Position numbers and translations under genes: made by a program
Part shown: piece by piece, positions 5,281 through 52,016 of the stretch
Layout: each line of letters opens with the position of its first letter
Position numbering within the stretch: position 1 is the first letter of the stretch
The notes under the pieces: generated by a model
The model's input: the letters and a program-made list of their open reading frames with translations, nothing else
What the model was told of the DNA's origin: nothing
The model's database searches: none
IMG/VR virus record: IMGVR_UViG_3300048796_000130
Source: an uncultured virus (IMG/VR IMGVR_UViG_3300048796_000130)
Lineage: Duplodnaviria; Heunggongvirae; Uroviricota; Caudoviricetes
DNA: 64,000 nucleotides
Reading direction: 5' to 3' (one strand)

Positions 5281-8200
5281 CTAGTGAACTACCGGCACTA
5301 ACTGCACAATCAAAACATCTCCGCGCGACTTGTTCGCTCCCACGTAGGTGTATTGCACTCCGTTCGCATCGGTGACCACACAGCCCACGGTTCCGCTACA
5401 AGTTGACCAGGTAGGCTTTGTGGTCGAACTTGTTCCGGGCGTGGTGATCTGGAAAACCCCGTAGTTTGTGCCGCTGCCACCGGTCGAGCTGAAGGGGTTG
5501 ATATAGGCGTTGAGCGGGTAAGGCGTACTTGGCGCCCACGGCGGCCCACAGGGAGGATTCGTGCTGCCATCGGTTCCGCCAAAGGCACAATTGCCATCCG
5601 AGGTGAATGCTAAGAATTGACCGTCTCCGGACCACTGGCTGATGCAGAACTGCACGTCAAAGAAAATATTTCCGCCTGTGTTGAAGCAGTGCGCGAAACG
5701 ATACTGGATCTGCGCTGGGTTCGGGGTTGTTCCGTTTACCCAGGTCGGAGAGATTGAGAGGCAAACTTCTTCGCCCTGCCAGGGCGCTTCCGGCGGCGGC
5801 GCCAGCGTGCCGTTGTTATAGATGCTGCCGCAGACAGAGCCGGTATCTGTGCCGTTGGGGTTGAATGCTGGACTCATGTGCGAGTCGTAGGCCAAGGAGT
5901 AGAAGCAAGGCGGCAGCGCGCTGGGCGGAGGGACGGAGTAGGTTGTCGTGCAAGGCGGCTGCCAGTTGATCAGCGGCACAAGCGTCGGAGTCAGTGCGGA
6001 GAGCACCATCGAGAACGCGCCCGTCGTGTAATCGTCCGGCGGTCCCACGGTCTGTCCTCCCACGTTGACGAGGGTCTGATCAAGCATCATCCAATGGTCA
6101 GAGGGGGTGTCGTAGAGTTGCAGGGAAGTGAGGGGGCTGAAATTTGCCGCGAATGGCACCCAATCGTAGATGTCGCCGAGCGCTGGAGTGGGACAATTGA
6201 CGCCGGGACTGTAGGCCATGCCCTGCCGCGCGATCGCGGGATAGTCTTCTGTTCCGCTGCCTTTACTGTTGTGGATGAAGATCCCGCAGTTGTTGTTAAA
6301 GATCGAGTTCTGGCCCTGCGGCGCCAGGGTGAGTGTGCCGCCCGAGCAGTTGTAGCCTGTGCCTCCTGAGCAAGTTGTTTTCGATTGCCAGCCGGTAGCG
6401 GTATTCAGCAGTTCGAAGCTATTTGCGACGGAGTCGTAGGCAATCTCGAAGATTCCCGTGCCCTGGTCGCCGTTGTAAGTCGAGACGTTATCGTCCCAGC
6501 CGTACTGGTTATTCGAGAATGCGTCGACCACTCGGGTGCTGTTGCGCGAGATGCCGGCAAAACTCGACCAGGAGGGCGGGCTCATGGGGCCAACGTTCGT
6601 CCAGGCGCAATATCCAGGGGAGCCTTCCGTGACCACCGTCATCAGGTACGGGAATCCGCCAGAGGAGAAGTCCGGCGATGAGCCATTCGAGGTGCAATTC
6701 GACGTGGTGAGTTGGAAGACAAACGTAGGAGGGCCGCCGATGTTGCGCCACTTCACCTGATTATCCGTGATGGCGCCTTCGGATGCGGAATAGCAAGAGC
6801 TTCCCGTGTTGCCCTTATTCCAGTTGGGCTCCGAGCCGCTGGCGGAGGTCTCGCCGGCCGCCGTCAGTTTGAACGCGCAATTGAGCGGATTATTTACCGT
6901 GGGCTGGATCAACGTCCCGAGCTGCGATGTGGTGTAAGTGGTGCTCGCCGTCCAGTCTGGAATTCCAGGTAGTGCGGCGGAAATGTACTGTCCTGAGACG
7001 TAAGCCGTGTTCGCCGTCCAGGCCGGGGCGTTGGTCGCGCAGCTATTCATCGGCAGGCCGCAGGCCAAGTCGGTAAAGGGTGCCCCCACGGTGAAATCCA
7101 TGGTCGAGAGGTTGAAGTTGTAGGGGATCACTTGCGTGCCTGGGATACCGTAATAGACATTGGGGTTCGACCAGTCCCACGAGCCACCACTGAAGTTAAA
7201 GGGGGAACTCGAACTCCCTGGAGTCGTCAGATTTTGCGAGGCATTGACCGCCGTGCCGCAACCGATACCCAGATTCGATTTGTTGAGCGAGGTGATCAGC
7301 ACGCGGCCATCGAAGTCATTCAACCGGAGTGCGGTCGAGTTGGCATTGAACGTCTGCTCGCAATCTCCCGATCCGCCGCAGCCGGCGGAGAACATATTAT
7401 TTTGGAACCCGGGCTCAAAGTTCGCGTCGGTGCAGCGGATGATGGGACTGAGCTGTCCGGTAAAGTTTGCCGGCGGCAGCGTGTAGGAGTTGTCGGTCAG
7501 GACCGCGTTGTTCTTCGTGAGGTTGCCGAAGTTCGGAACCGTTGCCCATGGAACAAGTGCGGTGCCGCTGTAGGCGGTGTAGAAATTCGGTGAAGGCGGA
7601 GCTATGCCCAGCGTCCATGTGCCCGTCTCGCAGAGCCCGCCTCCCGACGTGGGGCAGCCCCCATAGACCGATTGCGCTCCGAGAAACAAAGCAAACGACG
7701 CATCGTAGGGCAACACTTGCGCCAGCACGGATGCTGAAGTTTGCGCGTAGGTGGTCGAGGAGTAATTCGGATCGAGCGCGAACAGGATGTCGCCCACGGG
7801 ATAAGCCGACGAGTCGTAGTGAGAGCAGAGCGCGCAACTGGCCGGCCCATTGGTGTAAATCTCGGCGTTGTTCACCGTGACTAAAAGACCGCCGGAAAAG
7901 TTCACCAGCCCCGTGGTGCGCAGACTCACCAATCCATTCAGCAGACCGATAAAACCTTCCGGGCAGTCGGTGGAAGCCGCCGCAGGGGCAAGCGGACCGG
8001 CAATCGCAAACGTAGAACTGACTTGGCAATTCGTGGGCTGGGAACCGTTTAAGGTCTGCAAGGAGAGTGTCGAGCGCTGTCCGGCCAGCGCGCCGCCGGT
8101 AAACGTTGGATAGGTCACCGCGTTGCGATACCAACCGCCCGAAGTGCAACCCAGAGTTGCAGAACTTGGAGGATCATCGCAGGGCGTGGGGGTCGAGATT

Positions 8201-11124
8201 GCCGAGCAGTAGGCCGAACTCACCCCTTGGCTGCAGATGATGTTGGTCAAATCGGTGAGTTCGAGGCCGTTGGTGCGCATCCCGATGCTGAGAGCTGTTT
8301 CTATCGCCGCTTCTTGATCGGTGTAGGTGTAATCTCCACCCACGGCATTCATATCGCCGAACAGTGGCATCGTGGGGGCTTGCGCCGATTCTGAGAGCAG
8401 CATGTCGTTGATGCCGGAGAGGAACAAACTCTTCGAGAAGCTGGGTTGCTGGCCGGTGTTGAAAGTGGAATATTCCCCGCCGCCTTCGTAGCCACAAACG
8501 ATGTAGCCGCCGCCCAACTGACCGGAGTTGTAGTGGTCGATCGTCTGATCGCAGAACCAATTTCGCCAGACCGCATAGGGCATCTCGTAGGCGACGGGAA
8601 GCGCAGAGGCGAGAACCGCGGTCGTGGCATTCGGAGTATTTAAGTTGAGCACATGGGTCTGCTCAACGACTGGCGATCCGCCCAGGCAGGAAGCGTTGCA
8701 ACTTGCGTAGCTGGGGCCGTCGGAGAAAGTGAGACTGGAAGCGCCGGGCTGCGCGCTCAACGACCAAGTATTGTTGAGCGCCGTGTAGCTAGAGTTGGTG
8801 ATGCCCGCAATGGTGATGCTGTCCGGATAGGTAAATGTTGGAGCCGCCGCAAGGGACACCGTCACCGTTCCGCCGCTCCCGACGATGTTGGTGATGGCGA
8901 TCGAGTAGCAGTTTGTTCCCGTAAAGCTGGGGCTGCAGCTCACATCTTGCGGCGGAGCGTGCGCTCCCACCTTGGTCCAGGTGCAAGGATAGGTCGCCGT
9001 TTCCGTGTAGGGTCCAGCGCCGGTAAAGGCTGGTTCGGTTGCCCCAGCCACGCAACCTTGCCCGTAATTCGCCGCCCCTGGATTTCCCGGCAAGGCCACG
9101 GTTCCCGTCATCTGCCAGTAGGTTCCGGTTCCGGGGCAAGTCCCCACGCAGATGTATTGCAGAGTGCGGTACATCTGGCCGGAGGTCCACACCAATCCGC
9201 GGTACTGGCCGCTTCCATCGGTGTCGAGCAAGTCCGCCCAGTTCTGAGTGAAGACGTAGGACGATGTTCCGTTATTCTGTCCTCCCTCAATCGACGCCGC
9301 CTGAATGATGTTCGCTTTCTTGCCTTGCGACGTATAGGTCGCAACCAGCGCGTCTTCCGCCGTCCAGGAGAGAATCGGGTAGCTGGTGCCCTGGTCGACA
9401 TAAGTGGACTGGCCGCAGGCCGAGGAGCATCCGTCGGAAACAATCGCCGTGGCCCCGGTGAATAAATTATTTCCGCTTGAAAGCACCGACTCCCAGGCCG
9501 CGTAGTTGGTGTTACTCGATGTGGTGGGAGGCTGCACCGCGTTCAAGGTGTAGGGAGTGGGCGCGATCTGGACGGGCGCATTCACCGTCAAGGTGAAATT
9601 CTGGAATATCCCGTAAGGATTGTCGAAGGCCTCGAAGACTAAGGCGGTTGTACCCGCGGCGGTGGGCGTGCCGCTGAGAATGCCCGTACCCGCTCCGTCG
9701 TTCGAGGTAAAAATCAACCCTGCGGGCAGAGTGCCGGCGTAAAGAAAAATTCCGGGCACAGGGTAGCCCGTAGCGGTCACATTAAACGAGTTGGGCTGGC
9801 CTTCGGTGAAGGTCGCGCTGGTCGCGGAAGTGAAAACCGGCAAAGAGTAGACAGTGAGGGTGAAGGTCTGGAAGGCGTTGGGCGAGACGCCATTCGAGGC
9901 CGTCAGGGTGAAGGAGTAGACTCCGCCAGTTCCGGGTGCTGGAGTGCCGGAAAGCGTGGCGGTCCCATTGCCATTGTTCACCAGCGTCACGCCGGAGGGC
10001 AGGGTTCCGGTTACGGTGAAAGTCGGAGCGGGCACGCCGAGGCCGGTAATAGTGACGGTTCCGGGAGTGCCCACCGTAAAACTTGCGCTCGGCGCTGGGC
10101 ACGGATTCGCCGATGGATTGCAGGTGAAGAATGGTGCTGCGGTAGCAACCGTGTAGAAGTTGAAGAGGTCCACCCACTCGGTTTGCTCGACCGTCTTCAC
10201 ATCCAACTGATCCTGCGTACCTGTCTGCTCGACCCAACCTGAGGGGAGCGGTCCCGCCGACTCGCTGAGGTTGAGATTGGTGAGCGTCCCGTCGATCACC
10301 ACATACGGAAAGTGCATGCAGGCGTAGCTTCCGGTGCAGGACGTATCTCCGGCGGTGTAGTAGCCCACGGTGATGAGGTGGTGCCAGGTCTCGATTGCCG
10401 GGCTGCAGGCGAGTGTCGTTGGAATCCAGGCGGCGGTATAGGAATTCCAAACGTCCCAGAGATGGTGATTCAGGTCGCACTGGCCGCCGAACATGAAGCG
10501 GGTATTCTGCGTGACTCCGCCGTCGCCAGCATGGACGTATTTCCATTGATCGTATTCAAGGGCGTTGCCGGTCGCACCGTTCGCATCGAGGTAAAACCAC
10601 TGATCGGAGTAAAAATAGTAAGCGTTGTTCTGCGCGCCGTTGTCGTAGAACCAGAGGACGTTCGATTCGGCCTCGCCGTAATTGTTGAACTGCATCGATT
10701 CGCCATCGAGTGAAGGGCTGGAGTTGTCGATGGTCTGGCGGAAGGACACAACAGGGACGCCGAGGGCGTGTGTCTTGGTGAAGATGGCCGAGAAACTCGA
10801 CCCGGGCAATTCGAGGATAGTGACAACTTCCTGATTCGTCCCGGTATCGACGACAACGAAATTGCCCAAAACCATCCCGGCATAGGAAGCGGCTGTAACC
10901 GCGACCTCTGAGCCAGTGGTCGTCACTGCCAGGGTCGTGGTGGTGTTGACCAGCACTCCACTTCCGCCCGCGCAGCTCGCTCCAAAGCACGGCGGATATG
11001 CCCAACCAATCGCGGGCGATCCCGAATTTGTCGGCGCATCGTCGTCGATGTTGAGCGCCTGATTCTGGGCGTGCACCAGGCCGCCGAAAGAGAGTAGCGC
11101 AAAAATCAGAGAGAGCTTTTTCAC
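5281..11124 (-). CDS. Giant multidomain fibre/adhesin-like protein with Sec signal peptide
   Basis: Probable GTG start 11124 (MKKLSLIFALLSFGGLVHA|Q; no clear SD); lectin-like N-domain, two Ig-like repeats (LPSGVTL...LSGTP), CBM-like W-x-A-x-T-x-Y modules, many Cys. Confidence 0.75.
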   Translation of the reverse strand: MKKLSLIFALLSFGGLVHAQNQALNIDDDAPTNSGSPAIGWAYPPCFGASCAGGSGVLVNTTTTLAVTTTGSEVAVTAASYAGMVLGNFVVVDTGTNQEVVTILELPGSSFSAIFTKTHALGVPVVSFRQTIDNSSPSLDGESMQFNNYGEAESNVLWFYDNGAQNNAYYFYSDQWFYLDANGATGNALEYDQWKYVHAGDGGVTQNTRFMFGGQCDLNHHLWDVWNSYTAAWIPTTLACSPAIETWHHLITVGYYTAGDTSCTGSYACMHFPYVVIDGTLTNLNLSESAGPLPSGWVEQTGTQDQLDVKTVEQTEWVDLFNFYTVATAAPFFTCNPSANPCPAPSASFTVGTPGTVTITGLGVPAPTFTVTGTLPSGVTLVNNGNGTATLSGTPAPGTGGVYSFTLTASNGVSPNAFQTFTLTVYSLPVFTSATSATFTEGQPNSFNVTATGYPVPGIFLYAGTLPAGLIFTSNDGAGTGILSGTPTAAGTTALVFEAFDNPYGIFQNFTLTVNAPVQIAPTPYTLNAVQPPTTSSNTNYAAWESVLSSGNNLFTGATAIVSDGCSSACGQSTYVDQGTSYPILSWTAEDALVATYTSQGKKANIIQAASIEGGQNNGTSSYVFTQNWADLLDTDGSGQYRGLVWTSGQMYRTLQYICVGTCPGTGTYWQMTGTVALPGNPGAANYGQGCVAGATEPAFTGAGPYTETATYPCTWTKVGAHAPPQDVSCSPSFTGTNCYSIAITNIVGSGGTVTVSLAAAPTFTYPDSITIAGITNSSYTALNNTWSLSAQPGASSLTFSDGPSYASCNASCLGGSPVVEQTHVLNLNTPNATTAVLASALPVAYEMPYAVWRNWFCDQTIDHYNSGQLGGGYIVCGYEGGGEYSTFNTGQQPSFSKSLFLSGINDMLLSESAQAPTMPLFGDMNAVGGDYTYTDQEAAIETALSIGMRTNGLELTDLTNIICSQGVSSAYCSAISTPTPCDDPPSSATLGCTSGGWYRNAVTYPTFTGGALAGQRSTLSLQTLNGSQPTNCQVSSTFAIAGPLAPAAASTDCPEGFIGLLNGLVSLRTTGLVNFSGGLLVTVNNAEIYTNGPASCALCSHYDSSAYPVGDILFALDPNYSSTTYAQTSASVLAQVLPYDASFALFLGAQSVYGGCPTSGGGLCETGTWTLGIAPPSPNFYTAYSGTALVPWATVPNFGNLTKNNAVLTDNSYTLPPANFTGQLSPIIRCTDANFEPGFQNNMFSAGCGGSGDCEQTFNANSTALRLNDFDGRVLITSLNKSNLGIGCGTAVNASQNLTTPGSSSSPFNFSGGSWDWSNPNVYYGIPGTQVIPYNFNLSTMDFTVGAPFTDLACGLPMNSCATNAPAWTANTAYVSGQYISAALPGIPDWTASTTYTTSQLGTLIQPTVNNPLNCAFKLTAAGETSASGSEPNWNKGNTGSSCYSASEGAITDNQVKWRNIGGPPTFVFQLTTSNCTSNGSSPDFSSGGFPYLMTVVTEGSPGYCAWTNVGPMSPPSWSSFAGISRNSTRVVDAFSNNQYGWDDNVSTYNGDQGTGIFEIAYDSVANSFELLNTATGWQSKTTCSGGTGYNCSGGTLTLAPQGQNSIFNNNCGIFIHNSKGSGTEDYPAIARQGMAYSPGVNCPTPALGDIYDWVPFAANFSPLTSLQLYDTPSDHWMMLDQTLVNVGGQTVGPPDDYTTGAFSMVLSALTPTLVPLINWQPPCTTTYSVPPPSALPPCFYSLAYDSHMSPAFNPNGTDTGSVCGSIYNNGTLAPPPEAPWQGEEVCLSISPTWVNGTTPNPAQIQYRFAHCFNTGGNIFFDVQFCISQWSGDGQFLAFTSDGNCAFGGTDGSTNPPCGPPWAPSTPYPLNAYINPFSSTGGSGTNYGVFQITTPGTSSTTKPTWSTCSGTVGCVVTDANGVQYTYVGANKSRGDVLIVQLVPVVH

Positions 11125-11143
11125 GGAAGGAAAGCGGCTGGCT

Positions 11144-14100
11144 TTAATCTCGAATGTGGTAGGAGTAGCACTCCGGAGTGGTGGAAACCGCAGAGGACAG
11201 CGCGACCGCGAAGCCCGGAACAATCTGCACCGTCCCGCCCGTGCCCGTGGTGTTTCCGAGAATCTGGGAATAGACGATGGTGGTCGCGGAGTTGCTTGTC
11301 ACCAGCCCGAGAACGTCTAGGTTTGCGTTCGAGTCTCCGGCGTGGCGAATGATGCTGCCCGCCGGGAAACTTGAGCCCAGCGGCGAGGCCACGGTCAGCG
11401 TCGTCACATCGCTGGTCAGGGAAGCACTCGTCACCGCGTCCACCGGGTACGCCGTGAAATTCGGGTACGGCGTGAGTGGCCCCTGTTTCGCGGTGATCTT
11501 CCAACCTAAGAACTGCGTTGTGTTGCAGGCTGCTGGAGTTCCGCCGTAAAGCGAGACTGACGCGGGATCGTCGTCGAGCAGGATGACGCTGCCTGGTCCT
11601 TGCACGGCATTCGAGGACACAACGATTTGCTGCCACGTTGCCGGGACGGTGAAGAACCCGTCTTTCGCAGGGGGCTGCGTAGAGCCTCCTGCTTGCCCAT
11701 CGCCGTGATTCGCAATCCCCTGATAGTCCGTCGTGTCGAGCTGCGTGGACATCTTCCACACGTCGGAGGCAACCTGCCCGGAAGTCGTGAGCAGATTCTC
11801 GCCCGCCCCCGCTCCCGGTTGGCGCGAGCCGGGCGCGCCCAGCGCGTAGAGCGAAAGATAAGACTCTTGCGCCGTGGGGATGTAGTTGCCGTTCAATTCG
11901 TCGTCGATCAGCAGCGCGGGCAGATTCGGTCCGGCGGCGGACAGGTTGGCAAAGAAAAGGCCGCCGGTCGACGTCGGATTATTGGCGGAGATTTTCACCA
12001 GCGAGTTTTGTACGCTGACCGTGCCACTCTGCCCGCTGATGGTGGACAAGCTTCCGGCGGTCAGCACGGCGGTAAAGGTTGTGCCGGTGCAAGTGGTCGC
12101 CACGGTGAAGGGAACAAGCTGCGAAGAGGTCTGATTATATCCGGTTTGTGTGGTCAGGCCGGTGATTGTGATGGGCTGTCCGGCGCTCAATCCTGCGCAA
12201 GAGGCCGACGTGGTGTAGGTTGCGGTGTTGCCCGATTCCGAAGCGCCGGTGATGGTGAAAGACAGCGGAACATTCAGGTTGCCGGCGTTGATGTTGATGA
12301 ACGATTCCGAGTTCGCGCCCTCATCGTAACCTACCGAGACCGCGGCGATCCCGGCATTCTCCCAGTGCATGTTGCGGAATGTGGTGTGCGAGCCGCCGAC
12401 CGACATCAAAACATTCGGAGGAGCCGACGCCGCGCCTTGCGCCGTGCACGTCGTATTCGCGATTTCCTTCGGCCCAGCATCCCCCGGCGAGCCCGTGTTG
12501 AGGTCGATGCACTTCGCCGCGCGTGTAATTGTCGTGCCCGAGCCGAGCGAGAAGTCGAGGCCTTCAAACCAGCCGTTCTGCGCCCCCGGCCCGTTATTTG
12601 TGCCGCTGGTGAAGGCCAGCGTGAACATCAACGTGTGGGCGGTGTTGGTCGAGACCCAGGGGGTGTCGTAGTTTCCGTCCGTGGTCTGGGTCTGATATTC
12701 GACGCCTGCGGTGCCGGTTGCGACCAGCGAGGTAAAGCCAGAACCCGCAGCCCATGTGCTCGAATTCGAACCGGTGAGCGCCATGCCGACGATCGAGTCG
12801 TCGGGGTTGACGGTCGAGGAGTTGGTGGTGGTGACGGTTGGCCCCGGTCCGTGGGTGGTGCTCACGGCGGCCGCGGCGGCATCGACTCCGTTGTCATTCG
12901 GGATCTCGATGGCGCCCACATAGAGGCTGTTGTTATTCACCGAACCGCTGAAGGTCAGGGTGATGGCGCCGGTTCCGGCGTTGACGTTCGAGTCATAGAC
13001 GCAGCCTCCGGCTTCGAGCGTGCCGTCGACAATGGCGGTATTGGCGATGGTGGTGTAGGAGTCCCGTGTGGTAGAGTTCGTGGCGCTGTTCAGGGTGACC
13101 GTGTAGGGCGTAAACCGGGCGCAAACGGCGATCAGATCGCCGGCGACTTGCGGATTCGCTAAGGTGATATTGCAGGTTGAGGAGTTGCAGGTGGTCGCCG
13201 AGCCGTAGGAGTTGACGGGAGTTCCCGGAGTGACGGCAACGTTCGCGCCACCGATGGCAAGGCCCTTCCCGCCGTTCCCAAAACCCAGAAGATTGGAGCG
13301 GAAAAGTCCCGAGCCTTCCTGCCCTACGTAGTCCGCGAAGCCGATACAACCTGCCACGCTCTGGCAGTCGAGCGTGACTTCGTCGACAGGTGAGTCGAAC
13401 ACTGCGCCAGCGTTGAAATTGAAAGTGATGCCGTCGTCGGTGAAGCCCATCAGCGGGGTGCTGGTCGGGATGTTATTCGCCTGGAAGACGGTCGAACCCA
13501 CGTAGGGCTGGCCCGAGCCGGTCTGCCAGCCCTGCCCGTGGAGCATGGATTTGCGCGGGATGCCGATGCCGTTCGTGGGTTTGATCTGCGCCGGCCCCAA
13601 GGTGAGTGCGCCCTGATAGCTCGCCGAGAACAACGACATGATGCTCGCGTTCGCACAGTCGTACAGACCCTGAAAGCCTCGGGCGTCCACTTCTGGGGAA
13701 TATGTGGTATTGGCGTTCTGGGCCGCCACGATCGAGGCGCAATCGTCGGTCGAGGTGAAGCCCGGCGCCACGGCATCGACGTAGGACACGTCGCCAAACA
13801 GGGTATTCGCCCCACTGGCGCTGACGTTGCCTCCGGTCGGGAACGTCGCGTACTGCATGGGGAATGGGTAGAAGGCCGTGCCGCCGCCGGGGTACTCCCC
13901 GAAGAGACAGGAGGGATAAAGAATCGCCAGTTCCGCGTGCCCGGAAGAGGGACTCGCGGGCGCGACCGAGGGGCAGGGCGTGGTGATGGCCGCCGGACCA
14001 TTCAGCACAAAGCTATTGATATTGAGCGTGCCGATGGTTGCCACGGTTGCGGTGAGGTTGTTGAGCGCAACCGTGGCCGGCCAGGTGATCCCGGTGAAGG

Positions 14101-16137: not shown

Positions 16138-16156
16138 GGGTTGCTACTTGGGGCTG

Positions 16157-17549: not shown

Positions 17550-17807
17550 GTGCGAAGGAAGATTGAATACGTTGCGGTCTTCATCCTCTTCTGCCTATGG
17601 TTCGACTGGAGAATTCTCCGAAACTTAGGGGTCGCCACTTTCGCGATTTTGTACTTTCCCGTTGATCTAGTCCTGCATCCAACGTGGAATTACTTGACCG
17701 CGGCCTTCGCCATGAATCTTGCGCTGGCTGCCTTATGGTTTCTGGTCGTCGCTTGCGCCCAACTCTTCGCTTGGGCGAAGCGAAAACTACTGCGCAGCTC
17801 CCACTAA
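17550..17807 (+). CDS. Small multi-TM membrane protein; antisense moron
   Basis: About three hydrophobic segments; TGcTAGGAT (17534-42), 7 nt, GTG 17550. Confidence 0.65.
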   Translation: MRRKIEYVAVFILFCLWFDWRILRNLGVATFAILYFPVDLVLHPTWNYLTAAFAMNLALAALWFLVVACAQLFAWAKRKLLRSSH

Positions 17808-44481: not shown

Positions 44482-44703
44482 TTACTTCACGGGCTTCGGT
44501 TCCAACTGCTCTGCACTCCACGCATCGAGCGCGGGATGGGTGATAAACCCGACTGGCAGCGGCGGTCCGGGCAGGCCCACGATCTCGACCTGGCCATAGG
44601 TGCGGAGGATCGAGTGGGCCATGTCGCGCGCTGCAGGAGTCCAGCGCTGTCCGTTCATATTTAAGCGCGAGCCGCTCTTCGGAGATGTCTTCTTGTTGGT
44701 CAC
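44482..44703 (-). CDS. Small hypothetical protein
   Basis: GTGA overlap with the portal stop. Confidence 0.55.
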   Translation of the reverse strand: MTNKKTSPKSGSRLNMNGQRWTPAARDMAHSILRTYGQVEIVGLPGPPLPVGFITHPALDAWSAEQLEPKPVK

Positions 44704-47192
44704 TGAATCGTCAACGGACTCGGCGTAGCTCCCGGCATCGGCGGCGCGGGCGTCGATTGCACCGCACCGGCAGGCAACGCCGGCGCTCCCGGCGGCTCCG
44801 GAGCCGGCGGACCATTCGGCGCACTTCCTGGACCCGGCATGGGCGGAGCCATCTGCATTTGCTGCAACATGCGCAGCTTTTCGAGATAGAGCATCAGGTT
44901 GTCGAAGCCGTCGGGGAATTCCTGCAACAACTGGCCGCCATTGCGTAATCCGTAGACCACCACCGCCTCAATTGATTCTTCCCAGTACTCTCGCAGCAGA
45001 TCGGCGTTCGGCTGCACCGAACATTGCTTGATGGGCAGTCCGGTGACCGGATCGGCCACGGTAAGCGGGGCTTGCTCGATGAGTTTCGTGACGTCGCGCT
45101 GCACCCAGCGCCGGGCGTCCTCTTCCGGCAATTGCATATCCGGCGGCCCGAGGTAGCGGATCATCTGCCGGCGGTTCTGATAGTTATTCAGGATCTCCAT
45201 CAGCACCGGGTTTTCTTTGCCGCGGGAGAGCACAAACTCGATCATCTTCATGTAGAGATCGCGCTGCTGCTCGAATCCCATGGGGTACGCCTGGTCCGCT
45301 TCGGGATGGGCGTGGGCTTTGCCGGCGAGATCGGCGAGGCGAATCGCTTCGTTCTTGAAGTCGGGGCTGTCTTCGTCCTGGACGACGTCGTACACATCAT
45401 CGACCGCGTTTGCGGCGAAGCAATCCACGCTCTGCTCCGAGGAGCGCGCGGTTTCCTGCCGGAGTTGGTCCCAATCGCCCCAGAGCACGCCCATGGCGAC
45501 TCGCAGCGCTTGCTCCTGGCCTTTGGCGGTGTCGATGTCTTTCTGCGTCCCGCCGTAGGTTTGGGGCACGATGCGGGTGAGCAACTGAATCGTCATCTTC
45601 AGATCGGCCGAACGCTTGAAGACCTGCTCGGAGATTTCGGTCTTGAATTGTTTGAACACATCGTCCATCGAGCGCGTCCCATCTTTCATGGGGATGCCGA
45701 CCATGCGGCCCGGCTTCATGTGCTGGTTATTCAACTGCTGCCCCACCAGCTTCATGTTGTAGATGGTCACGCCCATCGAGGCCCGGTCGCAGTACTCCTG
45801 CAGCATGTTCTCGTTGTCGTTGATCTCGTCCTGGATGGGCATCGCCGGAGCTACGCGCGCCGGAGGGAAGAGTCCCAGATCGGTGCGCACCCCGGCCCAC
45901 TCCCATTCTTTCCACATGGCGCATTTGCGGCCATCGAGCGGGTCGTCGCCGAGCGTTGCTAAACAAAGCCCTTCAGGGAATAAATCGTGAAGCTTGTGCG
46001 CGTCCTCGCGCTTGTCGAGGTAGTCAAAGGCGTCGGGTTGGTAGAACGTGCGGTGGTAGGTGGGCAACGTCTGCGGCGTGATCAGGCCGCGCTGAATACT
46101 GGGGGAAAGAGCGCGCATACGCGCAATCCGCTCAATTTCCCCGTCCGGGGAAGAGGTATCACTGCCTCGCTTCACCAGATCCCAGGCGTCCGGGTACATC
46201 CCGCGCAGGGCGCCGGAAAAGATTTCCGCTTCGAGATCGATCAGCGGAGTATTCAAGAGCGGCTTCGGCGAATCCGCCCGCGCGTAGGGCATGGCATCGA
46301 TCTGCAGGCAGTTGTAGATGGCTTGCTGCACTTGCCCTTTCACGACTTTCTTCTTTCCCGTGACCATCGGCATCTTGGCGGTGATGCCGGGAAAGAAATG
46401 CTGCGAGCTTAAACGCAGGCCGCAGTTCATACACCAGGTCCCCTGGGGCTCGTTCGTTGGCGAGGTGATTTGCGCCGGATTATCGGTGCCGCAGTTGGGG
46501 CAGGAATAGCGGTGCGGGATGACCTGCTGAGACTGCCACTCGATCACGTCTTCGTAGGCGGGCTCGCACAGCCGTTCATCCATCGTCCAGCGGGTGTGGC
46601 GGAAGTAGCTGCCGGCGTAGAAGAAAGCCTTGAGCTGCTGTTCGAGCATCTGGCTTTCGTTGTTCTGCCGCCCGATGAGGCGCGCGGCCCGGCTGCGAGT
46701 CTCGGCCGCCCGGTTGTCGAGATCGTCCTCGGCGTTGTCCGGCCACCACTGGACTCTTGGGACGGAGGCTTTCAGGACGGAGACGTACACCCCTTCGAGA
46801 AACTGAATGTAGTTGTGGGCGTACTGGTAGAGGTTCGCGAGATCCGCCGCGTCCGATGCGCCCCCCAGTCCGCCGCCCGATTCCATGAACGGGTTGTAGT
46901 AGGAGTTGGTGTAGGCATCGAGCACGCAAAACTGGTTGTCCTTGGAATACTCGATGGCCTTCAGGGTGCCGCGAATCTTCAACCGGCGCTGGATGGCCCA
47001 GCTTTCCTTCAGCTCGCGCCGGATGTTCATCAGATTGCGGCAGATGTCCGGAGTCAGGCCTTTCTGGGTGAGCCGGTCCTGAATCTTCCCGAGAGCGGGA
47101 CTCGAACGCGCAGGCTCGGCACCCTGTTTGTACTGGGAGGCGTCGATCGGCGGCTTCGAGAATAAACCGCTGGGTTGTGGGGTGAGGCCCAT
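44700..47192 (-). CDS. Portal protein with Zn-ribbon insertion
   Basis: 830 aa; PRVQWWPDNAED..D..AA, MPIQDEIND, TYGG...TAKGQEQ, Q/P-rich tail; upstream of scaffold and capsid. Confidence 0.85.
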   Translation of the reverse strand: MGLTPQPSGLFSKPPIDASQYKQGAEPARSSPALGKIQDRLTQKGLTPDICRNLMNIRRELKESWAIQRRLKIRGTLKAIEYSKDNQFCVLDAYTNSYYNPFMESGGGLGGASDAADLANLYQYAHNYIQFLEGVYVSVLKASVPRVQWWPDNAEDDLDNRAAETRSRAARLIGRQNNESQMLEQQLKAFFYAGSYFRHTRWTMDERLCEPAYEDVIEWQSQQVIPHRYSCPNCGTDNPAQITSPTNEPQGTWCMNCGLRLSSQHFFPGITAKMPMVTGKKKVVKGQVQQAIYNCLQIDAMPYARADSPKPLLNTPLIDLEAEIFSGALRGMYPDAWDLVKRGSDTSSPDGEIERIARMRALSPSIQRGLITPQTLPTYHRTFYQPDAFDYLDKREDAHKLHDLFPEGLCLATLGDDPLDGRKCAMWKEWEWAGVRTDLGLFPPARVAPAMPIQDEINDNENMLQEYCDRASMGVTIYNMKLVGQQLNNQHMKPGRMVGIPMKDGTRSMDDVFKQFKTEISEQVFKRSADLKMTIQLLTRIVPQTYGGTQKDIDTAKGQEQALRVAMGVLWGDWDQLRQETARSSEQSVDCFAANAVDDVYDVVQDEDSPDFKNEAIRLADLAGKAHAHPEADQAYPMGFEQQRDLYMKMIEFVLSRGKENPVLMEILNNYQNRRQMIRYLGPPDMQLPEEDARRWVQRDVTKLIEQAPLTVADPVTGLPIKQCSVQPNADLLREYWEESIEAVVVYGLRNGGQLLQEFPDGFDNLMLYLEKLRMLQQMQMAPPMPGPGSAPNGPPAPEPPGAPALPAGAVQSTPAPPMPGATPSPLTIQ

Positions 47193-48296
47193 TTAGTGTT
47201 TCAGAGCGGCGACTTGATCCTTGAGTAGTTCGATTTCGGCCTGCTGCTGGTGAATCGCGTTCACCAAAGCCGCGACGATGGGGCGGTCGCCATTCGAGAG
47301 CGCGAGATATTCCTTCTCGTGGGGATGGTTGCAGGGAACTTTGTCGTAAATGGTTTTCGATTCGGGATCGGGGTTGGTGCTGAAGCATTCCTTGGTGACC
47401 GCTTCCGGCAGAACTGTTTGCAGATTGCGGGCGTTGAATCCGATCTGCTCCGGATTCGGCTCGCCGTCGTGAATGCTGTTGACCCTCTGGCCTTCCTCGT
47501 TCCAGTGGAAGTGGATGGGCTCGATAGCCATGATGGTGTCGAGGCCGCCGCGGTAGCGACTGAAAACTTTAAGCAGCGGATCGGACGAGGCGGTACAGAC
47601 GGTGATAAGTCCCTGTGTGTAGGTTTGGGTCGCGGTGCACAGCGTCGTGCCGGAGATTCCAGCGGTTCCGCTGGCGCTGAAATTAGTGTTCGCGCGCACC
47701 GTCGCTGACGCCGTGAGATTAGCCAACTGCATGGTGCCAGTAGTCGTTCCCTGCGAAGCGCTTCCGCAATCAATGACCAGAGCCGAGGCGCGAGAGCATC
47801 CCGTGTCGCCATTCCAGGAGAGCGGGCTGCCGCTGGTCATGCTGAGAGTGGTGAATGCGCCTGCGGCGGGAGTAGTTCCGCCGATGGCTGCCGGAGAAGC
47901 GAGATAGGTGGCGAGAGAATTAAAAGATGGGCTGCCAGTCGAACCTGAAACATTGCCGAGAAATGTTCCCGTCGCAACGTTGGGCGCTAAACTTGCGGTC
48001 ACGGTTCCTGATGTCGTAACGGCGGAGCTTGGCGTCGAACTGAGAACCGTACCATCTCCCGTGAACGTGACGCTGGTGACGGTGCCACTGCCACCACTCG
48101 CCGTCATCGTCACCGTCGATCCCGACGCCGTACAGGTCATCCCGGTGGAGCAGTTGAGCTTCGCGTAGCCCAGCCACGTCCCAATGGTCGTGCCTGCATT
48201 CTGGACCTGCAGGATGAATTGTTGCGGGCTGGCGGCCATGAGGATCACAGCCGCACAACAGAGCAGGGTAAGGGTGGCGAGTAATTTGCGTTTCAT
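47193..48296 (-). CDS. Tail-fibre-like protein with signal peptide and C-terminal peptidase S74 intramolecular chaperone
   Basis: MKRKLLATLTLLCCAAVILMA; GSGTVTSV, IGGTTPAAG fibre motifs; SSDPLLK, IGFNARNLQTVLPEAV, LVNAIHQQQAEI. Confidence 0.85.
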   Translation of the reverse strand: MKRKLLATLTLLCCAAVILMAASPQQFILQVQNAGTTIGTWLGYAKLNCSTGMTCTASGSTVTMTASGGSGTVTSVTFTGDGTVLSSTPSSAVTTSGTVTASLAPNVATGTFLGNVSGSTGSPSFNSLATYLASPAAIGGTTPAAGAFTTLSMTSGSPLSWNGDTGCSRASALVIDCGSASQGTTTGTMQLANLTASATVRANTNFSASGTAGISGTTLCTATQTYTQGLITVCTASSDPLLKVFSRYRGGLDTIMAIEPIHFHWNEEGQRVNSIHDGEPNPEQIGFNARNLQTVLPEAVTKECFSTNPDPESKTIYDKVPCNHPHEKEYLALSNGDRPIVAALVNAIHQQQAEIELLKDQVAALKH

Positions 48297-48328
48297 TTGC
48301 AGGGGTGTTCGCGTGAGGAAAAGCCGGA

Positions 48329-48625: not shown

Positions 48626-48633
48626 AAATTCTC

Positions 48634-49193: not shown

Positions 49194-49207
49194 ATCGGCA
49201 ACCTGCT

Positions 49208-49588: not shown

Positions 49589-49592
49589 GGGG

Positions 49593-50321: not shown

Positions 50322-50336
50322 CGGAGACCGCCTTTT

Positions 50337-52016
50337 TTAGAGAACTTCGATGTGGAGGTCGATTAACTGCGGAGGCGTGGTCGATTCTGCCGCCGTGGTC
50401 TGCAGGAATTCGACGAAGATCAAATCCTGATCGAGCACGTCGGCAGTGATCGCTGCGGTCGCTGATTCCACTGCCAGGTTGCCGGTGGTGGTTCCAGCCT
50501 GCAACTGCTCAAGCATGAAACCGCCGGGCATAATGGAGCCGGTCGTTCCTGTGCCATTCACGGTCATGGTGCAATCGAGATGGAGTTTGATCGCAGCCGT
50601 GCCTGTGGCCGTGGTTTCGGTATCGGTGCAGACGGCTTTCGGCGTTCCTGTGGTGAAATCGGTAGTGTCGCCGATCCCGGTCAGGAGTTGGATGGTGCCG
50701 CCGGTCGAGGGCGTCAGGGTGACGTTGCCGGTGATGTGGAGTGTCGCCGGGATGAAATTGAGATACCCGGGCGGCAAAGCCACTGTACCCAGCACCACCG
50801 CCTGTCCCGCAGTCAAAGCCGGGGCGACGGTGAACGGCCCGTAGTTCTGCTCAAAACCCACGAAAGGCCGCGGCGAGGGCGCGTAGGCGTAGGTGGTATG
50901 AGTCTCGAAGTTCGGGTTGTAAGCCGCTGCCACGCCTCCTGGGAAGGGATACAGCGCAAAGGTGGTCAGTGGCTTTGGAACAAAGGCGTTCGACCCCGTC
51001 TGGCCATAGGTGGCGTTGGTCACGGCGCAGGCCGGCACGATTGTTTCAATCGGGGTCAAGGTGCAATAGGTCGAGCTGGCCGGGAACCAGTAGGCCGTGG
51101 CATACGAGAGCCCGATGCCGAAGACGTAACCCACCGCACCGGTAGAAGCTGCGGGCGCGACGATCTCGATCTGCACGGCGCCGGCCGAGGTGTAGTTCGC
51201 GGTGGCCGATGCCTTGCCCACGTTGCCCAGGGCATCGACATATGCGACCCAGCCATACTGCGCGGCGTTGGTGAAGCCGCCGGAAGCGACGGCAATCGAG
51301 GTATCGCAAAAGGTGTGTGTGCTGGTGCAGTTCGAGGCGGAGCCCACCAAGGTCGTGGGCTGTGCGAGAGCCGTCAGTCCGGAGGGTTGCGGATTCCAGT
51401 ATTGCACTCCACTCCAGGACGTCGCGGTCGCACCGGGGCCAGCCGGGGCGCGTAAGTCAACGAGTTGGACGCCTGGATAGACCAGGGCCGCGGTCAACTG
51501 CGCGTTGGTGATCTGCGAGGTTGACTCGATCACCACATCGCCGATGCCTTTCGCCATGGCGTAGTTCATCGCTTCTTCGAGTCCGCCGTCGTTCGAGCTG
51601 ACCGAGAACCCAGGGTTCGAATGCGTGTTCGCGAAGGTTGCGGTGAAGGTGCAGTTGTACGGGCTCACCGTCGAAGGACCGGTAACGACTGTCGGCTGCG
51701 TCACGGAGGTTGGCGTGACCGCTTCCGAGTTGGTTCCGTCGGTGATGTAGAGCGGCACGTTCACTGCGATGGGATAGAACTCCTCGTAGCCGGTGCCGAC
51801 TTTGATGTAGCAGCCGTTGAGCGTGACCGTCTGCGCGCCGGACGAGATGCCGGTCTGCGACTGAAACGCCCACTTGCCGAATTCGTCCGCCATCACCGCA
51901 CCGTTGGCGTTGGCGGGGAATTTCGCATTCGCGAAGCTCTGGCCGAACGCAAGGCTGGTTGCGAGCAGCAGGAGTATTGAAACGACCGCGTGAATAGTGG
52001 GTTTGAGCGACTTCAT
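50337..52016 (-). CDS. Signal-peptide-bearing beta-rich protein, first gene of the late operon
   Basis: GGAGG RBS, ATG 52016; MKSLKPTIHAVVSILLLLATSLAFG|Q; T/G/A-rich with Cys pairs. Confidence 0.75.
   Translation of the reverse strand: MKSLKPTIHAVVSILLLLATSLAFGQSFANAKFPANANGAVMADEFGKWAFQSQTGISSGAQTVTLNGCYIKVGTGYEEFYPIAVNVPLYITDGTNSEAVTPTSVTQPTVVTGPSTVSPYNCTFTATFANTHSNPGFSVSSNDGGLEEAMNYAMAKGIGDVVIESTSQITNAQLTAALVYPGVQLVDLRAPAGPGATATSWSGVQYWNPQPSGLTALAQPTTLVGSASNCTSTHTFCDTSIAVASGGFTNAAQYGWVAYVDALGNVGKASATANYTSAGAVQIEIVAPAASTGAVGYVFGIGLSYATAYWFPASSTYCTLTPIETIVPACAVTNATYGQTGSNAFVPKPLTTFALYPFPGGVAAAYNPNFETHTTYAYAPSPRPFVGFEQNYGPFTVAPALTAGQAVVLGTVALPPGYLNFIPATLHITGNVTLTPSTGGTIQLLTGIGDTTDFTTGTPKAVCTDTETTATGTAAIKLHLDCTMTVNGTGTTGSIMPGGFMLEQLQAGTTTGNLAVESATAAITADVLDQDLIFVEFLQTTAAESTTPPQLIDLHIEVL

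What the first reader, a model, noticed from the sequence alone, without database searches (positions are those of the whole stretch)
5281..52016. Fibre/spike-type late proteins carry Sec signal peptides: a candidate system of periplasm-folded phage appendages
Seen: four proteins in the structural operon start with classic signal peptides: 5281-11124 (LVHA|Q), 11144-14998 (PVAA|Q), 47193-48296 (basic-hydrophobic-A) and 50337-52016 (LAFG|Q). The OMP (AGFA|Q) and the holin-HNH fusion (HSTA|Q) also have Gln at the predicted +1. These proteins are rich in paired Cys, while capsid, portal, nozzle and adaptor have no signal peptide. Known: tailed-phage virions assemble in the cytoplasm and their fibres normally lack signal peptides; Gln at +1 is the pyroglutamate 'Q-rule' of some diderm secretomes. 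Inference: these proteins are exported, disulfide-folded in the periplasm, and either dock onto virions at lysis or are displayed on the infected cell.
Basis: partly seen in the sequence, partly recalled or inferred. Interest (0 to 1): 0.88.

Follow-up and report, generated by a model that had tools for sequence, protein, structure and literature searches.

The report
Phage tail fibres carrying secretion signals
A roughly 70-kb phage of soil Acidobacteria puts ordinary bacterial export signals and paired cysteines on all four of its fibre- or spike-like late proteins, so its host-recognition gear very probably folds in the periplasm and not in the cytoplasm, where tailed-phage particles are built.

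Summary
Four late-operon proteins (559, 367, 1284 and 1947 aa) and a small outer-membrane protein begin with n-h-c leaders. Three of the four, and the OMP, have Gln at the predicted +1.

Relatives keep the leaders: 110 of 120, 13 of 13 and 3 of 3. In the 1284-aa family the leader varies while the mature end is invariant from Gln23. Cysteines are even in number and are gained and lost in pairs. In the fibre family, members with a leader have three times the cysteine of members without. Export and disulfide folding are therefore well supported (about 0.9).

The proteins look like receptor-binding proteins. They show a conserved N-domain with swapped distal parts, an S74 chaperone and a lectin-like head modelled as a trimer. 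Their genes are fused into the late operon, and the window holds no leaderless copies.

Whether they join the virion is not shown (about 0.5). The nearest precedent is Cellulophaga phage phi18:3. Its three leader-bearing fibre-type proteins are annotated as structural from MS/MS.

Earlier agents of this scan noted the same pattern on other DNA (110 findings in at least 101 genomes). My four searches for it found it described in no paper.

The parts
50337..52016 (-). 559-aa leader-bearing protein. Leader = residues 1-25 (nt 51942-52016), Gln26 at +1. Beta-rich N-terminal domain and a C-terminal jelly-roll/lectin-like head (about residues 385-559). 8 Cys.
   Evidence: Gln26 nearly invariant; 110 of 120 relatives have a leader. 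AF2 model pLDDT 84.8. Fold matches. Trimer model. Paired Cys. Position conserved next to the recombinase and upstream of the portal-position gene in 3 relatives.
47193..48296 (-). 367-aa tail-fibre-type protein with a leader or signal anchor (residues 1-22, nt 48231-48296), a short conserved N-domain holding a Cys pair, a repeat shaft and a C-terminal S74 intramolecular chaperone. Its stop abuts the start of the portal-position gene.
   Evidence: Pfam PF13884 at 23.0 bits, cut-off 22. phrog_1980 tail fiber, E 2.8e-10. 657 relatives, with and without leaders. The L001 counterpart has a leader ending ..AVA before Gln.
11144..14998 (-). 1284-aa leader-bearing protein. Leader = residues 1-22 (nt 14933-14998), Gln23 at +1. 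Conserved N-domain (about residues 23-245, 4 invariant Cys) and a variable distal part. 24 Cys. Its ATG overlaps the stop of the TerL C-part (ATGA).
   Evidence: The nearest named Atlas clusters are tailspike or fibre types at 0.75-0.80, a lead only.
5281..11124 (-). 1947-aa leader-bearing protein with a GTG start. Leader = residues 1-19 (nt 11068-11124), Gln20 at +1. He_PIG Ig-like domain at 429-515. 54 Cys in near-neighbour pairs. It lies 13 nt upstream of the endolysin gene.
3341..3883 (-). 180-aa OMP-like protein with a leader (residues 1-20), Gln21 at +1 and a C-terminal aromatic beta-signal. It is the last gene of the late operon.
   Evidence: Weak Pfam OMP_b-brl hit, E 0.0029, below the cut-off. 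A terminator-like hairpin at 3317-3299 lies just downstream.
4081..4788 (-). 235-aa membrane protein with three hydrophobic segments. The third ends ..STA before Gln and is followed by an HNH-like, Cys-rich domain.
   Evidence: sequence read directly. No Pfam or PHROG family.
4809..5267 (-). 152-aa endolysin with no leader and no SAR segment. It therefore depends on a holin.
   Evidence: Pfam Phage_lysozyme and phrog_7. Hydropathy maximum 0.67.
14995..17450 (-). Terminase genes: TerS (16917-17450) and TerL in two ORFs (16157-17065 and 14995-16137). They sit directly upstream of, and are coupled to, the 1284-aa gene.
   Evidence: phrog_51 and phrog_2. The same split occurs in two relatives.
44700..47192 (-). 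830-aa portal-position gene with no leader. The label is by position and size only.
   Evidence: 81% identity in close relatives, 33% in the distant prophage L009. No PDB or Pfam match.

Best explanation
The window is most of a roughly 70-kb tailed phage or prophage of Acidobacteriota.

Well supported: four proteins are genuine Sec/signal-peptidase-I substrates. They are 50337-52016, 47193-48296, 11144-14998 and 5281-11124. They are made late, from the same operon as terminase and the lysis genes. They are threaded unfolded through SecYEG and lose their leader. Their disulfides are then formed in the periplasm.

Inferred: in three of the four, the new N-terminal Gln is probably cyclised to pyroglutamate by the host.

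Inferred, about even odds: these are the phage's receptor-binding appendages. DNA-filled, fibreless particles are built in the cytoplasm. The appendages wait in the periplasm. The two pools meet when the holin opens the inner membrane for the leaderless endolysin, or at the burst itself. The conserved mature N-domains then dock on the tail as the last assembly step, much as P22 tailspikes can be added to tailless heads in vitro (recalled).
For: Leaders are real.
- They show n-h-c anatomy.
- They are kept in 110 of 120 listed relatives of the 559-aa protein. The 10 misses are 6 N-terminally short entries and 4 with a longer hydrophobic start.
- They are kept in 13 of 13 relatives of the 1284-aa protein and in 3 of 3 full-length relatives of the 1947-aa protein.
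- In the 1284-aa family the leader's mean majority-residue share is 0.49, against 0.85 for the first 40 mature residues. Invariant columns start at Gln23. One relative is 98% identical in the mature part but has an unrelated leader.

Folding in an oxidising compartment.
- Mature Cys counts are 54, 24, 8 and 8.
- In alignment A1, five column pairs hold Cys in both columns or in neither, never in only one: 16, 25, 11, 6 and 6 sequences have both. 35 of 36 sequences have an even count.
- 107 of 112 full-length relatives of the 559-aa protein, and 13 of 13 of the 1284-aa protein, have even counts.
- Among 92 fibre-family hits, the 22 with a leader have 1.70% median Cys and 19 are even. The 70 without have 0.55% and 38 are even. 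Mann-Whitney p = 1.1e-6.

Match to the host secretome.
- Gln is the top +1 residue in 400 kb of an acidobacterial genome that carries a related prophage (11 of 39 picked sites). In 200 kb of E. coli it is 0 of 7.
- That genome has a Glu_cyclase_2 gene, E 4.9e-97.

Late-operon membership.
- The 1284-aa gene starts in an ATGA overlap with TerL. Gaps to the following genes are 19 nt and 13 nt. The fibre gene abuts the portal-position gene.
- No promoter-like or terminator-like site lies at these gene boundaries. The one terminator-like hairpin at a gene end follows the last gene.

Receptor-binding character.
- 47193-48296 hits the S74 chaperone and tail-fibre PHROGs.
- Nine of 13 relatives of the 1284-aa protein share only the first 165-309 residues and then differ; their lengths run from 716 to 1559 aa.
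- Relatives carry other leader-bearing large genes at the same two loci.
- The head of the 559-aa protein resembles lectin/TNF-like jelly rolls and the heads of phage receptor-binding proteins. Foldseek gives prob 0.96-0.97 for lectins and the phage J-1 CBM2. VIA gives Z 7.2-8.9, including a cyanophage short-fibre CBD and the lactococcal phage 1358 RBP.
- Three copies of the head model as a trimer. Score 0.89, best of 3 controls 0.00. That mark was reached by 20 of 30 proteins solved as pairs of one chain and by 1 of 23 solved as single chains. The runs agree in at least 80% of contacts and the partner's pLDDT is at least 82. I used my own alignment and three copies, unlike the calibration. 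TNF-like trimers are solved, so the pass may come from likeness.
- The window holds no paralogue of any of the four, with or without a leader.

Precedent for virion content. In the cultured Cellulophaga phage phi18:3, gp085, gp086 and gp087 are annotated 'structural protein, experimental MS/MS'. All three start with a leader followed by Gln.

The endolysin has no leader, so a holin lesion that passes folded protein is implied.
Against: - Nothing here measures cleavage, pyroglutamate, disulfides or virion content.
- SignalP was not available. My leader and site pickers are crude and gave evident false positives and misses.
- For the 559-aa family the first 40 mature residues are as variable as the leader (0.41 against 0.40). 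The sharp-boundary argument holds only for the 1284-aa family.
- 47193-48296 has no Gln at +1, and its long hydrophobic stretch could be an uncleaved anchor.
- No docking partner was found. The AF2 model of the 1284-aa N-domain failed (pLDDT 33.5), so its likeness to known particle-binding domains is untested.
- The 1947-aa protein resembles giant bacterial surface proteins through its He_PIG repeats.
- The conserved 1532-aa tail-position protein could itself recognise the host.
- The window lacks roughly 6 kb of the genome, where a leaderless fibre could lie.
- The phi18:3 proteins are unrelated in host and hold few Cys (0, 1, 3). An MS/MS hit on a phage preparation can also come from co-purifying debris.
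- The host Gln preference is partial: 11 of 39, and only 2 of 12 in the second genome.
Confidence: 0.5

Rival explanations
1. The proteins are exported but never join the virion. Late in infection they act in the envelope or outside the cell. They might bind or cut the host's surface glycans so that progeny are not lost on debris or slime. They might make the infected cell stick to neighbours. They might sit on the cell surface, perhaps through the phage's small outer-membrane protein.
For: - The export evidence is the same as for the best explanation.
- The lectin-like head and the Ig-like He_PIG domain shared with bacterial surface proteins suit a surface or glycan role.
- The phage encodes its own leader-bearing OMP at the end of the operon.
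- No docking partner or particle-binding fold was found.
- P. gingivalis phages also encode proteins of unknown function with leaders that obey the Q-rule. Their authors read them as envelope modifiers (PMC10367356, passages read).
Against: - A strictly conserved 220-aa N-domain with swapped distal parts is the pattern of appendages that must fit a fixed socket.
- The fibre modules and the S74 chaperone are shared with ordinary leaderless tail fibres.
- The window has no leaderless paralogue whose receptor a decoy could mask.
- No other fibre-type gene has profile support, so the phage would be left without an evident receptor-binding protein.
- No TPS, T9SS-CTD or PEP-CTERM feature marks a route across or onto the outer membrane.
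- The phi18:3 counterparts are annotated as found in particles.
Confidence: 0.3
2. They are lysogenic-conversion cargo. On this reading they are host-type surface adhesins or enzymes carried by a prophage and expressed in the lysogen for the bacterium's benefit.
For: - An identical copy of the 1947-aa protein occurs on a contig of 166 kb, larger than the phage.
- A distant relative of the phage lies in a 156-kb acidobacterial contig.
- The He_PIG repeats match about 1700 large bacterial proteins.
Against: - The genes have no promoter-like or terminator-like sites of their own. They are packed against TerL, the endolysin and the portal-position gene, by an overlap, 19 nt, 13 nt and 0 nt.
- G+C is that of the neighbours, 0.59-0.63.
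- The 559-aa gene keeps its place in the structural module down to relatives whose portal-position gene is 33% identical. This is not the pattern of a moron.
Confidence: 0.1
3. The hydrophobic N-termini are not cleaved export signals. They could come from mis-called starts. They could be membrane anchors that hold the fibres at the cytoplasmic face of the inner membrane until assembly.
For: - 47193-48296 has an 18-residue hydrophobic stretch and no Gln at +1.
- 5281-11124 starts with GTG, and few of the genes have a clear ribosome-binding site.
- No experimental data exist.
Against: - Independent gene calls in 110 of 120, 13 of 13 and 3 of 3 relatives start at the same leader.
- A basic n-region and small residues at -3/-1 are kept, and Gln23 and Gln26 are invariant or nearly so.
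- Cysteines in pairs and even counts are not expected for proteins that stay in a reducing cytoplasm.
Confidence: 0.05

Closest known systems
Cellulophaga phage phi18:3 (Pachyviridae, KC821620) gp085, gp086, gp087, with counterparts in phi46:3 (KC821622)
   Same: This is a cultured tailed phage. Its three neighbouring fibre-type proteins each start with a Sec-type leader followed by Gln. GenBank annotates them 'structural protein, experimental MS/MS proteomics'. RefSeq names the matched gene or its homologues 'tail protein' or 'tail fiber protein'. phi46:3 gp082 and gp083 also start with such leaders.
   Different: The host is Bacteroidota, not Acidobacteriota. I found no sequence relation to the window's proteins, and tblastn with the capsid-position protein found nothing in the phage collection. 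They hold few cysteines (0, 1, 3), so they have no disulfide signature. I did not see the paper behind the record, so whether it comments on the leaders is unknown to me.
Podovirus tailspikes and fibres with a conserved N-terminal particle-binding domain and exchangeable distal part (P22 gp9, T7 gp17; recalled from general knowledge)
   Same: The 1284-aa family has a conserved N-domain and a swapped distal part. The genes lie beside terminase and lysis genes. Such appendages are added last and can be added in vitro. The nearest named Atlas clusters are of this kind, at scores of 0.75-0.80, a lead only.
   Different: The known ones have no leader and fold in the cytoplasm. No Pfam Head_binding or Phage_T7_tail hit was found here. 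The fold of the N-domain could not be modelled.
Tail fibres and endosialidase tailspikes with a C-terminal S74 intramolecular chaperone (Pfam PF13884)
   Same: 47193-48296 matches PF13884 above its cut-off, and it matches tail-fibre PHROGs. About three quarters of its full-length relatives are ordinary leaderless fibres.
   Different: This member, and 22 of 92 relatives, carry a leader and three times the cysteine.
Bacteroidetes Q-rule substrates (PMC5837995, PMC10653852) and the Q-rule proteins of P. gingivalis phages (PMC10367356)
   Same: Signal-peptidase-I sites expose Gln, which a glutaminyl cyclase turns into pyroglutamate. Phage genes copy the host's habit (passages read).
   Different: The rule is described as specific to Bacteroidetes. 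'Acidobacteria' occurs nowhere in PMC5837995. Here the host lineage is Acidobacteriota and the preference is partial. The P. gingivalis phage proteins have unknown function and are not fibre-like as described. Of PMC10653852 I saw only the search listing.
Sec-routed phage lysis proteins: secreted endolysin Lys44 of fOg44, SAR endolysins, T4 antiholin RI (PMC6116005 passages; PMC8385771 listing only)
   Same: Tailed phages use the host Sec system late in infection.
   Different: Those are lysis proteins, not structural or receptor-binding proteins. In the passages of that review that hold the term, signal peptides are discussed only for endolysins.

Membership tests
Sec / signal peptidase I substrates | Basic n-region, uncharged hydrophobic h-region and small residues at -3/-1 | tested here: met
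   Read directly for all four proteins and the OMP. SignalP was not available.
Sec / signal peptidase I substrates | The leader is kept in homologues as a property while its sequence drifts | tested here: met
   Kept in 110 of 120, 13 of 13 and 3 of 3 relatives. Leader identity 0.49 against mature 0.85 in the 1284-aa family. There is no such contrast in the 559-aa family (0.40 against 0.41).
Sec / signal peptidase I substrates | Cleavage and export demonstrated | not testable with these tools
   Needs N-terminal MS or reporter fusions.
Disulfide-bonded extracytoplasmic proteins | Cysteines conserved and gained or lost in pairs, with even counts | tested here: met
   Five column pairs never hold Cys in only one column, and 35 of 36 sequences are even. 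Even counts in 107 of 112 and 13 of 13 relatives. Mature counts are 54, 24, 8 and 8.
Q-rule (pyroglutamate N-termini) | Gln at +1 of the phage proteins | tested here: met
   Three of four, plus the OMP. 102 of 120 and 13 of 13 relatives have a compliant site followed by Gln. 47193-48296 has Ser.
Q-rule (pyroglutamate N-termini) | Gln at +1 in most host SPase I substrates, and a glutaminyl cyclase in the host | tested here: inconclusive
   Gln is the top residue but not the majority: 11 of 39 and 2 of 12, against 0 of 7 in E. coli, with a crude picker. Glu_cyclase_2 is present in one of two genomes. The true host genome is not held.
Tail fibre with S74 intramolecular chaperone | Match to PF13884 at the C-terminus and to tail-fibre families | tested here: met
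   47193-48296 scores 23.0 bits against a cut-off of 22. phrog_1980, E 2.8e-10.
Podovirus tailspike or fibre with an N-terminal particle-binding domain | Recognisable Head_binding or T7-tail N-domain, or its fold | tested here: inconclusive
   No Pfam hit. Atlas lead at 0.75-0.80. AF2 model unusable at pLDDT 33.5.
Podovirus tailspike or fibre with an N-terminal particle-binding domain | Conserved N-domain with exchangeable distal domain | tested here: met
   Nine of 13 relatives share only residues 1 to 165-309. Other cassettes sit at the same locus in relatives.
Virion structural protein | Presence in purified particles | not testable with these tools
   There is only an analogy to phi18:3 gp085-087, annotated from MS/MS.
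Two-partner secretion, T9SS or PEP-CTERM cargo | TPS domain, C-terminal sorting domain or PEP-CTERM tail; a partner transporter gene | tested here: not met
   Pfam lists no such family for any of the four at E up to 0.01, nor for the 1284-aa and 1947-aa proteins at E up to 1. The C-termini lack a PEP motif or anchor. The only OMP is 180 aa.

The most novel reading that the evidence does not exclude
Tailed phages of Acidobacteriota assemble in two compartments. By the scan's other notes, phages of several other diderm phyla do the same. Heads and tails are built in the cytoplasm. The whole host-recognition apparatus goes through Sec, is trimmed by signal peptidase I, is capped with pyroglutamate and is cross-linked by the Dsb system in the periplasm. 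The halves are joined only when the holin breaches the inner membrane. Infectivity would then depend on the host's secretion and oxidative-folding machinery.
Probability: 0.45. Interest if true: 0.9.

Novelty: new variant of a known kind. Interest (0 to 1): 0.78.

Why it matters
Textbook tailed-phage assembly is wholly cytoplasmic. Receptor-binding proteins that mature in the periplasm would add a compartment and a timing step to that pathway.

Host factors such as SecA/SecYEG, LepB, DsbA and glutaminyl cyclase would become determinants of phage infectivity, and possibly of resistance. It would also explain how soil phages obtain disulfide-stabilised, protease-resistant fibres.

There is a practical consequence. 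Such fibres would misfold if expressed in the cytoplasm, and virome annotation pipelines would mis-file them as 'secreted host-like proteins' or auxiliary genes.

The question is directly testable in a cultured system, the Cellulophaga phages.

Separately, a Gln(+1) preference in Acidobacteriota would widen a rule now described as specific to Bacteroidetes.

Tried and rejected
- No genome is held for the window. The host was therefore inferred from relatives in three Terracidiphilus MAG contigs, one Ca. Angelobacter contig and one Elusimicrobia MAG contig.
- tblastn of the capsid-position protein against 50,697 phage records found nothing. No tRNA genes were found.
- I looked for an invertible fibre segment beside the small serine recombinase. 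Only short, imperfect inverted repeats of 27 nt or less and 71-89% identity turned up, none flanking a gene sensibly. I rejected this idea.
- The AF2 model of residues 1-420 of the 1284-aa protein, from 14 sequences, reached pLDDT 33.5. It was unusable, so no fold search was run on it.
- phmmer against PDB sequences gave nothing useful for the portal-position protein, the 1532-aa protein or the fibre.
- The Atlas search with the 1947-aa protein, leaving out He_PIG clusters, gave no usable hit.
- My first two tallies of host leaders were either biased by splitting at polar residues or diluted by sites inside the h-region (Gln 7%, 7% and 9%, no contrast with E. coli). I replaced them with a site picker that ignores the +1 residue.
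- The TonB-receptor loci were mostly cut before the N-terminus. A leader was found in 14 of 30, and Gln was at the picked +1 in 4 of the 14.
- The strict picker recovers only 2 of the 4 proteins in the window and gives 1 false hit. I used it for contrasts, not for calling.
- Whole-model Foldseek TM-scores for the 559-aa protein are low (0.07-0.24). Only single-domain matches are meaningful, and VIA Z of 7-9 is in the range the tool calls common.
- Literature: four searches for leader-bearing fibres or receptor-binding proteins listed no paper describing the pattern. One search on Acidobacteria with glutaminyl cyclase or pyroglutamate listed 10 of 375 papers, none holding 'Acidobacteria'. The library lacks most subscription journals.
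- Accession numbers guessed from memory to reach phi18:3 gave other Cellulophaga phages and phi46:3. The right record came from a tblastn search.

Full report
WHAT THE WINDOW IS

All late genes lie on the minus strand, at a G+C of about 0.60. Profile matches identify these genes:
- a small terminase subunit at 16917-17450;
- a large terminase subunit in two ORFs, 16157-17065 and 14995-16137;
- an endolysin at 4809-5267;
- a tail-fibre-type protein at 47193-48296;
- a small serine recombinase at 52076-52741;
- a Dam-type methylase at 2234-3055.

The remaining 'capsid, portal, nozzle, adaptor' labels rest on position and size only. Pfam, PHROGs and PDB sequence searches gave nothing for those ORFs.

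No genome is held for the window. Relatives of the 559-aa protein lie on contigs of about 69-71 kb. In genome collections they lie in three contigs of Terracidiphilus MAGs, one 156-kb contig of Ca. Angelobacter and one contig of an Elusimicrobia MAG. The host is therefore most probably a member of Acidobacteriota, and the phage is temperate or has temperate relatives.

THE OBSERVATION

Gln follows in four of the five. The exception is the 367-aa fibre. It has Ser at +1 and a long h-region that holds two Cys, so an uncleaved anchor is possible there. None of the other 23 ORFs examined has such a start. The coordinates are right.

ARE THE LEADERS REAL?

559-aa protein. The search scored 7999 candidates and found 145 proteins at E up to 0.001. 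Of the 120 listed, 110 have a leader by my rule. In 102 a -3/-1-compliant site is followed by Gln. The 10 misses are 6 N-terminally short entries and 4 with a longer hydrophobic start interrupted by Asp.

1284-aa protein. All 13 relatives have a leader followed by Gln. All 3 full-length relatives of the 1947-aa protein do too.

The boundary in the 1284-aa family. The leader is poorly conserved, with a mean majority share of 0.49. The mature chain is invariant from Gln23 on, at 0.85 over the first 40 residues. Four invariant Cys lie in the N-domain. One relative is 98% identical in the mature part yet has an unrelated leader. This is how a cleaved signal behaves. For the 559-aa family the same measure shows no contrast (0.40 against 0.41). 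There the argument rests on retention of the n-h-c property and on the nearly invariant Gln26.

CYSTEINES

The mature parts hold 54, 24, 8 and 8 Cys, mostly as near neighbours.

I chose 36 relatives of the 559-aa protein to span the range of identity and aligned them. Five column pairs hold Cys in both columns or in neither, and never in only one. The numbers of sequences with both are 16, 25, 11, 6 and 6. Thirty-five of the 36 sequences have an even count.

Even counts hold for 107 of 112 full-length relatives of the 559-aa protein and for 13 of 13 relatives of the 1284-aa protein.

The fibre family offers a natural experiment. Of the 150 listed hits I left out the query's own entry and 57 entries that are short or do not start with M. 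That leaves 92.
- The 22 with a leader have a median of 1.70% Cys. Nineteen are even and none lacks Cys.
- The 70 without a leader have 0.55% Cys. Thirty-eight are even and 9 have no Cys.
- Mann-Whitney p = 1.1e-6.

Leader and paired cysteines thus travel together, as expected if the leader takes the protein to an oxidising compartment.

THE GLN AT +1

I wrote a site picker that ignores the +1 residue.
- In 400 kb of the Ca. Angelobacter genome that carries a related prophage, Gln was the commonest +1 residue (11 of 39 sites).
- In 117 kb of a Terracidiphilus MAG it was 2 of 12.
- In 200 kb of E. coli K-12 it was 0 of 7.

The picks include evident false positives, so these are lower bounds on a partial preference, not a rule. 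The Angelobacter genome has a Glu_cyclase_2 gene (E 4.9e-97). The incomplete Terracidiphilus MAG shows none. The published Q-rule is described as specific to Bacteroidetes, and the founding paper never mentions Acidobacteria (PMC5837995, abstract and term search).

WHAT KIND OF PROTEINS ARE THEY?

They are late proteins.
- The 1284-aa gene starts in an ATGA overlap with the terminase gene.
- The next gaps are 19 nt and 13 nt.
- The fibre gene abuts the portal-position gene.
- There are fewer promoter-like and terminator-like sites than in shuffles, and none at these boundaries.
- The one terminator-like hairpin at a gene end follows the last gene of the operon.

They look like receptor-binding proteins.
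- The 367-aa protein has the S74 intramolecular chaperone and matches tail-fibre PHROGs.
- Nine of 13 relatives of the 1284-aa protein share only the first 165-309 residues and then diverge. Their lengths run from 716 to 1559 aa.
- A 71-kb relative carries three leader-bearing genes after terminase, of 803, 982 and 937 aa.
- A 43-kb fragment carries a fibre of the 367-aa type at that locus.
- Another relative has a 546-aa leader-bearing fibre with the same short N-domain upstream of its portal-position gene.
- The distant Angelobacter prophage has at least three leader-bearing genes there.

The 559-aa protein gave a good model (pLDDT 84.8).
- Its C-terminal 175 residues form a jelly roll like lectins, TNF-like lectins and the heads of phage receptor-binding proteins.
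- Its N-terminal beta domain resembles small domains of phage tail proteins.
- All these matches are at scores the tools call middling.
- Three copies of the head model as a trimer. The score is 0.89 and the best of 3 controls is 0.00. That mark was reached by 20 of 30 proteins solved as pairs of one chain and by 1 of 23 solved as single chains. The runs agree in at least 80% of contacts and the partner's pLDDT is at least 82.
- I used my own alignment and three copies, unlike the calibration. The pass may reflect likeness to solved TNF-like trimers.

The window holds no paralogue of any of the four proteins. No other gene has fibre-type profile support.

DO THEY JOIN THE VIRION?

This is inference. 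Four points favour it:
- the fixed N-domain with an exchangeable distal part;
- the sharing of fibre modules with ordinary leaderless fibres;
- the lack of any alternative receptor-binding gene in the 64 kb seen;
- one precedent that I checked after a lead from earlier notes of this scan.

The precedent is the cultured Cellulophaga phage phi18:3. Its gp085, gp086 and gp087 are annotated 'structural protein, annotation based on experimental MS/MS proteomics analysis'. All three start with a leader followed by Gln.

A plausible meeting point also exists. The endolysin here has no leader, so the holin must open lesions that pass folded protein. In the lambda paradigm, as I recall it, such lesions are far larger than a capsid. 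That would merge cytoplasm and periplasm before the outer membrane goes.

Against it:
- no docking partner was found, and the N-domain model failed;
- the 1947-aa protein shares He_PIG repeats with giant bacterial surface proteins;
- the phage has its own OMP, which could serve display on the cell;
- about 6 kb of the genome lie outside the window;
- the conserved 1532-aa tail-position protein might recognise the host by itself.

VERDICT

Export and periplasmic disulfide folding are very probable, about 0.9. Virion appendages added at or after holin action stand at about 0.5. An envelope or extracellular role without virion incorporation stands at about 0.3. Lysogenic-conversion cargo stands at about 0.1. 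Artefact or uncleaved cytoplasmic-face anchor stands at about 0.05.

PRIOR KNOWLEDGE

Four searches for signal peptides on tail fibres, tailspikes or receptor-binding proteins listed no paper that describes this pattern. The passages I read discuss signal peptides on phage proteins in three contexts:
- for endolysins (PMC6116005);
- for unknown-function Q-rule proteins of P. gingivalis phages (PMC10367356);
- for prophage CAZymes (PMC13507307).

The library lacks most subscription journals, and I did not see the paper behind the phi18:3 record.

Earlier agents of this scan noted the same pattern on other DNA: 110 findings in at least 101 genomes. Those are unchecked AI notes. I used them only for the phi18:3 and phi46:3 lead, which held.

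Noticed in passing
17787-28256 (-): A 3489-aa protein with no cysteine that combines four domains: a histidine phosphatase (674-823), a 2H/2'-5' RNA-ligase-like domain with weak Acb1 likeness (967-1087), an Eco57I-like methylase (1273-1377) and a Strawberry-notch-type helicase (1650-2245). It sits where podoviruses keep ejected internal proteins, so it is a candidate injected multi-anti-defence protein, DarB-like.
   Followed up: no
14995-17065 (-): The large terminase lies in two ORFs in different frames, separated by 19 nt. The ATPase part is 16157-17065 and the nuclease part is 14995-16137. The same split is seen in two relatives (G003, G004), so it is not a sequencing error. It is either a two-gene terminase or a programmed frameshift.
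   Followed up: partly
4081-4788 (-): A lysis-cassette ORF with three hydrophobic segments. The third looks like a cleavable leader ending before Gln and is followed by a Cys-rich HNH-like domain. That domain would face the periplasm, making it a possible periplasmic nuclease. No family match.
   Followed up: no
loci L040-L059 (G001) and L066-L085 (G002): Acidobacteriota genomes show a preference for Gln at +1 of predicted signal-peptidase-I sites: 11 of 39 and 2 of 12, against 0 of 7 in E. coli. One of them encodes a Glu_cyclase_2 homologue. The Q-rule is published as specific to Bacteroidetes.
   Followed up: partly
3341-3883 (-) and 3299-3317: A 180-aa OMP-like protein with a leader and a C-terminal aromatic beta-signal sits at the end of the lysis cassette, where spanins usually lie. 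A terminator-like hairpin follows it. No spanin-like gene was recognised.
   Followed up: no
42892-44436 (-): The scaffold-position protein (514 aa, no Cys) starts with a hydrophobic segment that lacks a basic n-region. Ala/Pro/Glu/Lys-rich repeats follow. In relatives only residues 123-514 are conserved.
   Followed up: no
52076-52741 (-): A small serine recombinase (resolvase/invertase type, 221 aa) keeps its place beside the 559-aa gene in two relatives. No convincing inverted repeats for a fibre switch were found.
   Followed up: partly
P0271 against 11144-14998: A relative is 98% identical over the whole mature 1284-aa protein but has an unrelated leader of different length. Leaders appear to be exchanged independently of the mature protein.
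   Followed up: no
L009 6705-14776: A distant prophage in a 156-kb Ca. Angelobacter contig has a portal-position gene 33% identical to the window's. It carries at least three leader-bearing genes upstream of that gene: 922 aa, 526 aa and one of about 310 aa. The trait is therefore old in this lineage.
   Followed up: partly
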